Of a stretch of DNA of 64,000 bases, positions 29,414 to 31,735 are shown piece by piece (within the stretch, counting starts at the first letter, position 1; each line of letters opens with the position of its first letter). A model generated the notes under the pieces. That model was not told the origin of the DNA, did not search any database, and saw only the letters and a program-made list of their open reading frames with translations. The translations under genes and the position numbers were made by a program. The stretch comes from Gonapodya sp. JEL0774 (Eukaryota), in the NCBI GenBank assembly GCA_027604505.1, contig JADIIX010000101.1:1-64000 (forward strand), read 5' to 3'.

Positions 29414-31735
29414 TCAGTTTCGGGTATGAGTATTGTTCGTTGATGTCGGCAAGCCCATGGGAACAACTCCCATGCGGAGTTTCAAAGCGGTATTCTCACC
29501 CTCAAGCTCCCTCACCCTCTCTCGGAGCTCCTGGATTGTTCGCTCCTGCTCGGTTATTCGGCTGTTCAATTGATCAAACTCAACCTGCTTCTTGCGGCGA
29601 TATCTAAGAGAAAACACAGGGAAGCGGGAGTAACTGAGCGGTCCACGTCGTAGTTCACGAACACATGACATGCAAACGCACCGAGCACTGGCCTCTCTGT
29701 TCCTCTTCTTCTGCTGCTCTGCCGTCTCTTCATCTATGGGTCCTCCATCAGAGAGGTTACCGTGACCAGACCCCGGTGAAACGGACTTCGATTCACTGGC
29801 GCTTGGTGACCTCTTCAAGACCGTTCTGACAGGACCTCCACCTGATTGCCGAGTTTTGACATCCACATCAAATGAAGGTGCCTTTACGGATTGACTGGAG
29901 ATACTCGTGCTGTAGGTAGGCGCTGGTTGAGCGATTGGAGCTGTTGCAGCGCCACTTGAGAGAACCGAATGCGAACGGAGGGGTGCAGGGGGAGGAAGTG
30001 GCAGTAGAGCCGGTGTAGAGGCCATCGAAGCGCGATACAGATTTATTGTGCCGTTGGTGGACCCGTTCGTAATGGGCAGAACACTCCCAGCACCAAGTTT
30101 CCAATCGACTTGCGTTGCTTCAGTCAGTGTGGACATAGCTGGCAATGTCACCACCGATCCTGCTGAATAAGGTACCGTAACTGCTGGAAATGATCCTGCG
30201 GTGAAGGGTGCGCCTGTCCACCCGCCCGCAAGTGGGTTCATAGTGCCAAGTCCACCAGTTGTGACAGGGCGAGGTTCGAGAGGCATGGGCACTGAAAGTG
30301 AGGAAGGAGGTGGAGAGGAGAAGATCAAGTTGCTGGTTGTGGGAGACCAGGCATTGGCAGGAGTTGTTCCCTTATTACTGTGGATTGAAATTCGAATGTG
30401 ACAACCATGTATGGGCGGTCAAGACATGTCAACCAAAACACACTTAGGAGATTGAGATGCTATTTCTTCAAGCCCTTGAAAGAAGAGTGCTGTTTTTGAG
30501 GTAATGTTTATGCAGTAGGTGACTCCCGTAGTCTGAAGGTAGGTCAGGCTAAAGGGCCATGGTTCGAATACCAAGTTCCGAGAAAACAGGTTCTTGCCGA
30601 CTGCACTTACACTTTCATAATAATCTCCTCGTCAACGTCAAAGCGGCAGAAGAACCCCTCCCCATGCGGGAAGCTGCAGCGGTCCACTTCTACTCTCAAT
30701 TAGCAAACACGGATGGTGCGCATTCTATGAATTTGGTGAAAGCTTAAGATTTAACTTCCAGACCAGATACCTCACCAATGACGATGTCATTCCAGATAAA
30801 CACATGACGGAAGTTCTTGAAGCTGCCGATACATCGAATTCCTCCCTCGATCCCAGGATACTTCAAGACAACGTCGCGGATGATACTCGACGTTGACTGA
30901 GCAGTGACGTTAGCTCCAAGGAGTACTTGTTTGACTTCTACGTTGTCGAGGGTGGTTGATTCTTCCTTTTCTCGGACTTCAAAGTAAGGTTTTCCACTGT
31001 TGGACTCAAAGAAGATGGTTTCCTTGAGAACAATGGAGCACGCTAGTAGGTAAACATGGCAAATGGAGAGAGATACATCAGAAATAGACGGGGAGCACTT
31101 TGCGACTGACTGGAAGCTGGTGACAGAGAAAAAGAGACAAAACACTTCATCCCTGAGATCGCTCTTTATGCTCACCATGTCTTTCTTGGTCACTTTTTGC
31201 CGTCCCAGAGGAAATTTCTTCCTTGGAATAACGAATAATTACGGTCAGTCCGGCGTTCCAGAGCTCGTGGTTGGCACCATCGAGTATAAAATCCTGCTGG
31301 GAAAATACGCGTTGAAGCTGCTGTGAGTTGCTCGCGAGGTTGCTGAGAAGGCTGGCGGTCGAATCATAAAAGGCAAAAACACGGGTTAGAAGGGTGGAAT
31401 GTGTCATCCTCCGAGGGATGGGACTGTTGTCAGCGAGCACGTCAGATGACGACTCCAGTAGGTCTGTGAAAGAGGCTCCGCTCCTAACTCCGCAAGAAGA
31501 ATCCGGCTTTGGAAAGGGAAAAACGCACTGCTGGTAGTCTGACTCCGTGGCAAGCTGAATCTTTGCCTTGAGCGGCCCCGTCGTCTGGATCGACCGCTCC
31601 CGGATACCCCCGCCAGGTGAAGGTGTGGAATCCAGATTGAAAATTGATGCAGCGGCAGAGGAGAGAAGTTTGAGCGGCAAATTGAGTCGGTGTATCAGCC
31701 GTCTTTCTGTTGTTGGTTTGTCGGCTCACCGCCAT
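29414..31735 (-). CDS. Putative CYTH(TTM3-like)-bZIP fusion transcription factor, about 524 aa
   Basis: Eight GT-AG exons in compatible phase: 31735-31730, 31584-31529, 31351-31176, 31042-30776, 30689-30611, 30548-30444, 30377-29682, 29603-29414. CYTH part QQDFILDGANHEL...CSIVLKE...IRCIGSFKNFRHVFIWNDIVIEVDRCSF; bZIP KKRNREASARYRRKK...LEGENTALK. Confidence 0.75.

What the first reader, a model, noticed from the sequence alone, without database searches (positions are those of the whole stretch)
29414..31735. CYTH/TTM3-like pseudo-enzyme fused to a bZIP: candidate (poly)phosphate/nucleotide-sensing transcription factor
Seen: eight GT-AG exons splice in frame (1575 nt, 524 aa), joining a ~230-aa domain, an S/P/T-rich linker and a bZIP. 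Knowledge (recalled consensus): the N-terminal domain follows plant TTM3 tripolyphosphatase block by block (QQDFILDGANHEL ~ QxNxFFDG..EL; CSIVLK ~ CIVSLK; IRCIGSFKNFRHVFIWNDIVIEVD ~ FVCLGGFENVRNVYEW..LEVD; TSKTALF ~ TKFAVF). The metal-binding glutamates are gone (ExExK becomes PLKAK; YEIECE becomes FFCRFD) while several tunnel Lys/Arg residues remain. The basic region RNREASARYRRKK resembles Cys3/MetR/Zip1/ATF4-type bZIPs. Inference: a dead triphosphate tunnel reused as a ligand sensor that controls transcription. I know of no described CYTH-bZIP factor.
Basis: partly seen in the sequence, partly recalled or inferred. Interest (0 to 1): 0.9.

Follow-up and report, generated by a model that had tools for sequence, protein, structure and literature searches.

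The report
Dead phosphatase barrel on chytrid bZIP
Gene models from eight genera of chytrid-type fungi join a DNA-binding (bZIP) domain to a phosphate-enzyme barrel that has lost its key catalytic residues but kept its phosphate-gripping ones, so it likely senses a phosphate-chain metabolite and would pass that signal straight to gene expression.

Summary
The eight minus-strand exons splice to 524 aa without stops. The N-terminal domain is a TTM3-type triphosphate tunnel: PDB profile E 5e-15 to 2e-12; a family-only model of an orthologue's domain gave Foldseek E 3.5e-14 and Z 19.6. The C-terminus passes the Pfam bZIP_2 cut-off. Twelve database proteins carry both parts: the window's own model, ten more models from eight genera in two phyla, and one environmental protein. 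The domains form one clade (100/100). In 8 of 8 complete domains AtTTM3 Glu2, Glu4, Glu169 and catalytic Arg52 are replaced, mostly Glu4 by Lys and Glu169 by Arg. Lys6, Arg54, Lys76, Arg143 and Lys200 are the only invariant Lys/Arg of 20. Best reading: a hydrolase-dead tunnel that binds a phosphate polyanion without metal and regulates the bZIP. Fusion and fold are well supported; ligand sensing is inferred (about 0.45). No RNA run was listed, the 5' micro-exon is unproven and the bZIP subfamily is not assignable. I found no paper describing the fusion.

The parts
31730..31735 (-).
   Evidence: GTGAGC donor follows and the ATG has a purine at -3 and G at +4; no orthologue support, and one search suggests coding sequence upstream of 31584
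31585..31617 (-).
   Evidence: 9 of 11 residues identical to P0002 residues 46-56
31529..31584 (-). Exon 2: first tunnel strand; ExExK replaced by PxKxK (P6, K8, K10 = AtTTM3 E2, E4, K6)
31176..31351 (-). Exon 3: tunnel strands 2-3; D41 (DxY/NxF position), I59 (catalytic R52 lost), R61 (R54 kept)
30776..31042 (-). Exon 4: K86 (K76), E104 (E90), N156 and R158 (N141, R143)
30611..30689 (-). Exon 5: E169, D171 (E154, D156 kept); F182, R184, D186 (E167, E169, E171 replaced)
30444..30548 (-). Exon 6: C-terminal plug helix with K213 (K200)
30378..30443 (-). Intron 6 (66 nt, in-frame stop): joins the tunnel domain to the linker; retention would give a 237-aa tunnel-only protein
   Evidence: same junction in P0001; splicing not shown by RNA
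29682..30377 (-). Exon 7: S/P/T-rich linker (about 219 aa, 40% S+P+T) and first half of the bZIP basic region
   Evidence: orthologue linker is low-confidence in the AlphaFold model
29414..29603 (-). Exon 8: rest of the basic region, leucine zipper and stop
   Evidence: Pfam bZIP_2 24.1 bits against a cut-off of 22.3 in P0001

Best explanation
This is one gene of a family conserved across chytrid-type fungi that encodes a bZIP protein with an N-terminal TTM3-derived tunnel domain lacking the known catalytic residues; the tunnel is predicted to be hydrolase-dead, likely binds a phosphate polyanion (tripolyphosphate, short polyphosphate, pyrophosphate or a nucleoside triphosphate) without metal, and would thereby regulate the bZIP's transcriptional output. 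Shown: reading frame, fold, fusion in orthologous gene models, residue pattern. Inferred from AtTTM3 mutagenesis: loss of catalysis (about 0.85). Inferred from conservation: anion binding (about 0.55), with Lys8 and Arg184 standing where the metal ligands were. Inferred by analogy: ligand closes the barrel, and this changes partner binding, dimerisation, localisation or stability. The linker is 55-589 aa, low-complexity and poorly conserved, so I favour such indirect control over rigid allostery onto the DNA-binding helix.
For: Fold: PDB profile hits cover the whole domain (8H92 E 5.4e-15, AtTTM3 E 2.1e-12). HH-align to six canonical TTM3-like proteins gave 99.4% over 197 columns. A model of the P0003 domain built without canonical TTM rows has pLDDT 88.7, and matches TTM3 best by Foldseek (E 3.5e-14) and VIA-align (Z 19.6, rmsd 2.8, 189 aligned). 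Fusion: 11 of the 22 family hits carry the bZIP, plus P0031. None of the other 11 holds both the first strand and the plug helix of the domain. Named sources span Monoblepharomycota and Chytridiomycota. The domain tree is one clade (100/100) that broadly follows host taxonomy, and domain and bZIP identities correlate (rho 0.43, permutation p 0.024, 9 proteins). Loss of catalysis: PMC4641920 (results text) reports strong loss of activity on mutating Glu2, Glu4, Glu169 or Arg52; all four are replaced in 8 of 8 complete domains and kept in 4 of 4 canonical controls. Kept binding residues: the 5 invariant Lys/Arg of the 20 in the window domain are exactly K6, R54, K76, R143 and K200, against 0 of 13 non-tunnel Lys/Arg (Fisher p 0.0014), at pairwise identities of 29-81%. 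Net charge of 25 inward-mapped positions shifts from -2 to -4 in controls to 0 to +3. Invariant D41 sits at the DxY/NxF position linked to substrate-water binding in PMC8233210 (passages). Precedent: the inactive AtTTM1 tunnel still binds citrate through basic residues and is proposed to bind a phosphate metabolite (PMC9582702 passages).
Against: No binding, activity, DNA-binding or expression data. The kept Lys/Arg are matched by invariant Glu90, Glu154 and Asp156, so they could be structural salt bridges across the barrel. Glu169 becomes Leu, not Arg, in 3 of 8 domains and Glu4 becomes Met in 1 of 8, so the charge replacement is not universal. Arg52 and Lys78, both basic in AtTTM3, are not basic in any of the 8 domains (Lys78 is not kept in the four canonical controls either). 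Phe replaces Glu167 in 8 of 8 and may narrow the tunnel; I could not inspect model coordinates. The Fisher test is post hoc and the sequences are related. Inward/outward assignments rest on strand alternation and alignment, not on a ligand complex. The closest orthologue model (P0002) lacks 11 residues of the basic region. Dead CYTH folds can work purely through protein contacts (Jhc1; Med18/Med20 share the fold). All fusions are gene predictions.
Confidence: 0.45

Rival explanations
1. The dead barrel is a ligand-independent protein-interaction or dimerisation module (co-activator, Mediator or repressor docking), and the kept tunnel charges only stabilise the fold.
For: Med18/Med20 have this fold (Z 9.2-9.9). 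The ThTPase-derived pseudoenzyme Jhc1 is proposed to act through protein contacts (bioRxiv 10.64898/2026.02.04.703868, passages). Invariant acidic residues accompany the invariant basic ones, and 37 of 207 ungapped columns are invariant, many of them hydrophobic.
Against: The only invariant Lys/Arg are the tunnel ones. New basic residues appeared at the two former metal-ligand positions in most members, which a filled or collapsed tunnel would not need. The domain is far closer to TTM3 (Z 19.6) than to Mediator subunits.
Confidence: 0.27
2. The tunnel binds a phosphorylated macromolecule rather than a metabolite: the 5'-triphosphate end of an RNA, or a phosphopeptide, including one in its own S/T-P-rich linker.
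For: Same basic tunnel evidence. Cet1-type RNA triphosphatases share the fold (Z about 7). Linkers hold 5-18 SP/TP sites in 9 of 10 proteins examined.
Against: The plug helix with Lys200 is kept as in TTM3, whose substrate is inorganic (PMC4641920). Similarity to Cet1 is weak. No RNA-binding surface was tested.
Confidence: 0.13
3. The domain is still an enzyme with changed chemistry, in which basic residues replace the acidic patch as in the polyphosphate polymerase Vtc4, so the protein is a bifunctional enzyme and transcription factor.
For: PMC4641920 reports that Vtc4 has basic residues in place of the acidic patch and uses the Lys equivalent to Lys200, which is invariant here. Glu90, Glu154, Asp156 and often an Asp at Glu171 remain.
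Against: Vtc4 keeps metal site 1, completed by the Glu169-equivalent that the paper calls invariant in all characterised TTMs; here it is Arg or Leu in 8 of 8. Arg52 is also lost.
Confidence: 0.1
4. The fusion is a gene-prediction artefact: a tunnel-domain gene ending near 30419 lies next to a separate bZIP gene.
For: Intron 6 has a non-consensus GTGTGT donor and an in-frame stop. An in-frame ATG lies at 30286. The database model P0001 wrongly-looking runs on into the next gene, so such models can mis-join.
Against: Eleven other proteins from eight genera and one environmental source have the same order and frame, with linkers as short as 55 aa. The orthologue is collinear across the junction. 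No family hit is a complete stand-alone domain.
Confidence: 0.03

Closest known systems
Plant TTM3-type tripolyphosphatases (AtTTM3, PDB 5A5Y/3V85; 8H92; 6YP4)
   Same: Best sequence and structure matches over the whole domain; same tunnel basic residues K6, R54, K76, R143, K200 and plug helix.
   Different: Stand-alone active enzymes of about 210 aa with E2, E4, R52, E169, E171; here these are replaced and the domain is fused to a linker and bZIP.
AtTTM1/AtTTM2 inactive TTM domain (PMC9582702; PDB 7Z67)
   Same: Catalytically inactive tunnel that keeps basic residues, binds an anion and is proposed to regulate a fused domain.
   Different: Partner is a P-loop kinase with a short rigid linker; Glu to Gln changes rather than Glu to Lys/Arg; structurally more distant (Z 10.3).
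Aureochromes (bZIP-LOV; e.g. PMC4721966, search listing and abstract start only)
   Same: A bZIP joined to a sensor domain in one polypeptide.
   Different: Sensor is a light-responsive LOV domain C-terminal to the bZIP; here a TTM barrel lies N-terminal behind a long variable linker and sensing is untested.
Mediator Med18/Med20 and Jhc1
   Same: CYTH/TTM-fold proteins in non-enzymatic roles; Med18/20 act in transcription (fold match; lack of catalysis in Med18/20 is recalled).
   Different: No DNA-binding domain; distant folds (Z under 10) or ThTPase-derived; no conserved TTM3 phosphate-binding set was examined for them here.
Vtc4 and Vtc2 tunnel domains
   Same: TTM fold (Z 12.2-12.9); basic residues replace the acidic patch in Vtc4.
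   Different: Membrane polyphosphate polymerase complex; Vtc4 keeps the site-1 glutamate, which is lost here.

Membership tests
CYTH/TTM superfamily (fold) | Beta-barrel tunnel with C-terminal plug helix | tested here: met
   Models of orthologues P0002 and P0003 match TTM3 structures; ESM Atlas model of P0002 TM 0.66/0.79 to a CYTH cluster. The window's own protein was not folded; it is 81% identical to P0002 over the domain.
CYTH/TTM superfamily (fold) | Pfam PF01928 above gathering cut-off | tested here: not met
   No hit in P0001 or P0002; sub-threshold hits in P0003 (18.2 bits) and P0005 (21.7 bits) against 23.2. This explains why annotation misses the domain.
Active TTM3-type tripolyphosphatase | N-terminal ExExK motif (Glu2, Glu4) | tested here: not met
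   No acidic residue at either position in 8 of 8 complete domains; Lys at Glu4 in 7 of 8.
Active TTM3-type tripolyphosphatase | Site-1 metal ligand Glu169 | tested here: not met
   Arg in 5 of 8, Leu in 3 of 8.
Active TTM3-type tripolyphosphatase | Catalytic Arg52 | tested here: not met
   Ile, Thr or Met in 8 of 8.
Active TTM3-type tripolyphosphatase | Substrate-binding basic residues Lys6, Arg54, Lys76, Arg143, Lys200 | tested here: met
   Invariant in 8 of 8. Roles of Arg54, Lys76 and Lys200 are from PMC4641920 and PMC8233210; those of Lys6 and Arg143 are inferred from alignment.
Active TTM3-type tripolyphosphatase | Mg-dependent PPPi hydrolysis | not testable with these tools
   Needs an assay.
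bZIP transcription factors | Basic region Asn-x7-Arg followed by a leucine heptad repeat | tested here: met
   Asn456, Arg464 and five heptads in the window protein; basic motif conserved in 11 of the 12 database proteins with both parts, P0002 being the exception; Pfam bZIP_2 above cut-off in P0001, P0003-P0007. The spacing rule is recalled.
bZIP transcription factors | Sequence-specific DNA binding as a dimer | not testable with these tools
   Needs EMSA, SELEX or DAP-seq.
Cys3/MetR/Zip1 or ATF4 subfamily | Closest bZIP relatives belong to that subfamily | tested here: inconclusive
   Profile search ranks Jun and GCN4 first and ATF4 at E 0.33; single-sequence search ranked ATF4 first among bZIPs at E 0.59. 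Cys3, MetR and Zip1 were not compared.
One-component ligand-sensing transcription factors (aureochrome-like logic) | Stimulus binding to the sensor domain changes DNA binding or transcription | not testable with these tools
   Inferred only.

The most novel reading that the evidence does not exclude
Chytrid-type fungi have a one-component transcription factor that reads tripolyphosphate or short polyphosphate directly in the nucleus, through a TTM3 tunnel whose metal ions were replaced by Lys/Arg side chains: a eukaryotic phosphate-sensing route that needs neither SPX domains nor a kinase cascade, and a handle on the physiological ligand of TTM3 enzymes.
Probability: 0.3. Interest if true: 0.9.

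Novelty: new variant of a known kind. Interest (0 to 1): 0.74.

Why it matters
The domain falls below the Pfam CYTH cut-off, so these proteins are labelled hypothetical and the architecture has been easy to miss. It defines a transcription factor family shared by two phyla of zoosporic fungi. PMC8233210 (passage) states that the physiological function of CYTH proteins has largely remained elusive, and the abstract of PMC9938405 (listing) states that the impact of nuclear polyphosphate on eukaryotic transcription is unknown. A TTM3 tunnel wired to a DNA-binding domain makes both questions testable: the ligand can be found by binding screens and the pathway read from the factor's target genes. 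A metal-free, non-hydrolysing tunnel could also serve as a biosensor scaffold. If the domain is only an interaction module, it is still an undescribed pseudoenzyme-bZIP family, of more specialist interest.

Tried and rejected
No whole genome is held, so paralogues, a canonical TTM3 gene and candidate target promoters in this genome were not examined. No RNA holder was listed; this is no evidence on expression. Two metagenome scans found no confirmed locus (0 of 90 and 0 of 96 pattern matches), so no orthologous DNA or intron positions were seen. Word-index protein searches were insensitive: one search found 2 of 33 candidates and missed P0003; one search found 7 among the 7992 scored and missed P0004, P0006, P0007; one search found 1 of 3666. 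The only full HMMER scan used a two-sequence profile. The absence of named hits from other chytrid orders, Blastocladiomycota, Mucoromycota or Dikarya is therefore weak evidence. ESM Atlas by features gave only sub-0.9 leads for the domain and nothing for full-length P0003. NCBIfam gave nothing meaningful. A PDB search with exon 8 alone returned generic coiled coils. Earlier-findings look-ups returned nothing. Literature: CYTH+bZIP+chytrid 0 papers; CYTH domain+transcription factor+domain architecture+fungi+bZIP 0; Chytridiomycota+phosphate+PHO pathway+Pho4 0; triphosphate tunnel metalloenzyme+bZIP 6 papers and CYTH+leucine zipper 7 papers, 6 listed, none about such a fusion by title or abstract start. 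In PMC10406608 all 6 CYTH-superfamily rows of supplementary file 3 lacked a bZIP term, but that file was cut when stored. PMC138802 (original CYTH domain survey) was not held; most subscription papers are not searched. Neighbouring genes (FYVE-RING, PRELI, NIPA) give no functional clue.

Full report
Observation. The eight minus-strand exons from 31735 to 29414 total 1575 nt, all introns are GT-AG and 62-177 nt long, and the product is 524 aa with no internal stop. A search with exon 4 returned a database gene model of this same DNA (P0001, labelled as a Gonapodya protein) and an orthologue from Gonapodya prolifera (P0002). The 5' end is open: 11 codons upstream of the exon-2 acceptor match P0002 at 9 of 11 residues, so the 6-nt first exon may be wrong or incomplete. 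No transcript data could be had.

The N-terminal domain. Pfam CYTH does not reach its cut-off in any fused protein. Searches of solved structures nevertheless rank plant TTM3-type proteins first, with single sequences (E 5.6e-4), a two-sequence profile (E 1.5e-5) and a 16-row family profile (8H92 E 5.4e-15, AtTTM3 E 2.1e-12 over profile positions 4-206 of 215). HH-align against six canonical TTM3-like proteins gave 99.4% over 197 columns. An AlphaFold2 model of the Cladochytrium domain, built from family rows only, has mean pLDDT 88.7 and pTM 0.83. Its best matches are TTM3 structures by Foldseek (E 3.5e-14, TM 0.69-0.72 by query) and by VIA-align (8H92, Z 19.6, rmsd 2.8, 189 aligned); Vtc4/Vtc2, ThTPase, AtTTM1 and Med18/20 follow at Z 9-13. 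The full-length P0002 model shows the same domain, a low-confidence linker and one long C-terminal helix; its alignment included canonical TTM rows, so it is the less independent of the two. The window's own protein was not folded.

The C-terminal domain. P0001 passes Pfam bZIP_2 (24.1 against 22.3 bits). The basic region is nearly identical across the family, and the Gonapodya zipper has one more heptad than most. The subfamily cannot be named: Jun and GCN4 chains score best with a family profile and ATF4 scores weakly. P0002 lacks 11 residues of the basic region at the position of intron 7; a gene-model error is likely but I could not check it.

The family. A full HMMER scan of 1.84 billion representatives with the two-sequence domain profile gave 29 hits: 22 family members and 7 canonical CYTH proteins. 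Eleven of the 22 carry the bZIP, and one search added a twelfth (P0031). Named sources are Gonapodya (Monoblepharomycota) and Cladochytrium, Nowakowskiella, Quaeritorhiza, Phlyctochytrium, Irineochytrium, Zopfochytrium and Blyttiomyces (Chytridiomycota); P0018 is an unnamed environmental protein with the second half of the domain and a bZIP in one chain. The other 11 hits are 102-267 aa and none holds both the first strand and the plug helix; one is from Chytridium. In a tree of 25 rows the 19 family rows are one side of a 100/100 branch against six canonical proteins, with the Gonapodya pair (99/98), a Chytridiales plus Blyttiomyces group (100/100) and a weaker Cladochytriales group (89/80) (P0016, P0017, P0020, P0023 and P0027 were left out as poor or duplicated models). 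Domain and bZIP identities correlate modestly (rho 0.43, p 0.024). The simplest reading is one fusion before the two phyla split, inherited vertically; the root is midpoint only. The range may be wider than found, since the searches were shallow.

Residues. I mapped AtTTM3 numbering through the alignments and read roles from PMC4641920 (parts 2-5 of 6 of the text). That paper finds strong loss of activity on mutating Glu2, Glu4, Glu169 or Arg52, moderate loss for Lys76 and Glu90, and little effect for Arg54 and Lys200, and assigns the basic residues other than Arg52 mainly to substrate binding. In 8 complete domains (P0031, P0012 and P0005 dropped as near-duplicate or incomplete), Glu2 is never acidic, Glu4 is Lys in 7, Arg52 is Ile, Thr or Met in all, Glu167 is Phe in all, Glu169 is Arg in 5 and Leu in 3, and Glu171 is Asp in 6; four canonical controls keep all of these. 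Glu90, Glu154 and Asp156 are invariant. Of 20 Lys/Arg in the window domain exactly five are invariant, and they map to Lys6, Arg54, Lys76, Arg143 and Lys200; none of 13 non-tunnel Lys/Arg is invariant (Fisher p 0.0014, post hoc, related sequences). Net charge over 25 inward-mapped positions moves from -2 to -4 in controls to 0 to +3. So the residues needed for catalysis are gone and those assigned to binding are kept.

Mechanism. I commit to a hydrolase-dead tunnel that binds a phosphate polyanion without metal and gates the bZIP (0.45 overall). The gene and fold are shown at the level of sequence and models. Loss of catalysis follows from published mutagenesis (about 0.85). Binding is inferred from conservation and from the AtTTM1 precedent, where an inactive tunnel still holds citrate by basic residues (PMC9582702, passages). 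TTM barrels open and close with ligand (PMC8233210, passages), which offers a switch. The linker is 55-589 aa, 27-45% Ser/Pro/Thr and poorly conserved, so control is more likely through partner binding, dimerisation, localisation or turnover than through rigid coupling. Rivals are a ligand-independent interaction module (0.27; Jhc1 and Med18/20 precedents), binding of an RNA 5'-triphosphate or phosphopeptide (0.13), an enzyme with changed chemistry (0.10) and an annotation artefact (0.03). The main weakness is that the kept basic residues may be structural partners of the kept acidic ones.

Novelty. Both parts are known, dead TTM domains are known (AtTTM1/2, Jhc1) and sensor-bearing bZIPs are known (aureochromes; listing only). 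I found no description of a CYTH/TTM-bZIP fusion in five searches aimed at it or in the CYTH rows of one fungal gene-family catalogue (file cut when stored). The library omits most subscription papers, and bioRxiv supplements were not seen. The protein is a member of the TTM fold and bZIP families, is not a member of the active TTM3 enzymes by three failed features, and is predicted to work like a one-component sensor. Verdict: a real, conserved and apparently undescribed architecture; new variant of a known kind; interest 0.74.

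Noticed in passing
A further 5' exon (for example donor near 31766, acceptor 31707), a non-AUG start or a constrained intron end are all possible.
   Followed up: partly
window 30533 (-): A second acceptor in exon 6 has a stronger-looking branch point than the one at 30549; its use would shift the frame and stop the protein before the plug helix. 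Possible unproductive splice form.
   Followed up: partly
window 30378-30443 (-): Retention of intron 6 would give a 237-aa tunnel-only protein, a possible decoy isoform.
   Followed up: partly
window 29498-29173 (-): Database model P0001 splices from inside the zipper exon into the first exon of the downstream FYVE gene, probably a mis-join.
   Followed up: yes
window 27490-29254 (-): Downstream gene with FYVE, SAP/ARMET_C-like and RING matches, resembling an RNF34/RFFL-type E3 ligase (name recalled); most of it lies in one 469-codon frame.
   Followed up: partly
window 32596-33666 (+) and 33949 onward (+): A PRELI-family gene lies head-to-head with the finding, about 1 kb away, followed by a NIPA magnesium-transporter gene.
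   Followed up: partly
P0027: An unnamed 462-aa protein with two tandem CYTH domains, each with altered ExExK and Glu171 positions.
   Followed up: no
P0003/P0031 and P0008/P0009: The family is duplicated in Cladochytrium (near-identical pair, one with a 109-aa Q/P/S-rich N-terminal extension) and in Zopfochytrium (diverged pair).
   Followed up: partly
P0010, P0013, P0014, P0018, P0021: Unnamed environmental fragments branch outside all named members, hinting at the family in an unsampled early fungal lineage; P0018 has a divergent basic region with Ser at the Asn position, as does P0012.
   Followed up: no
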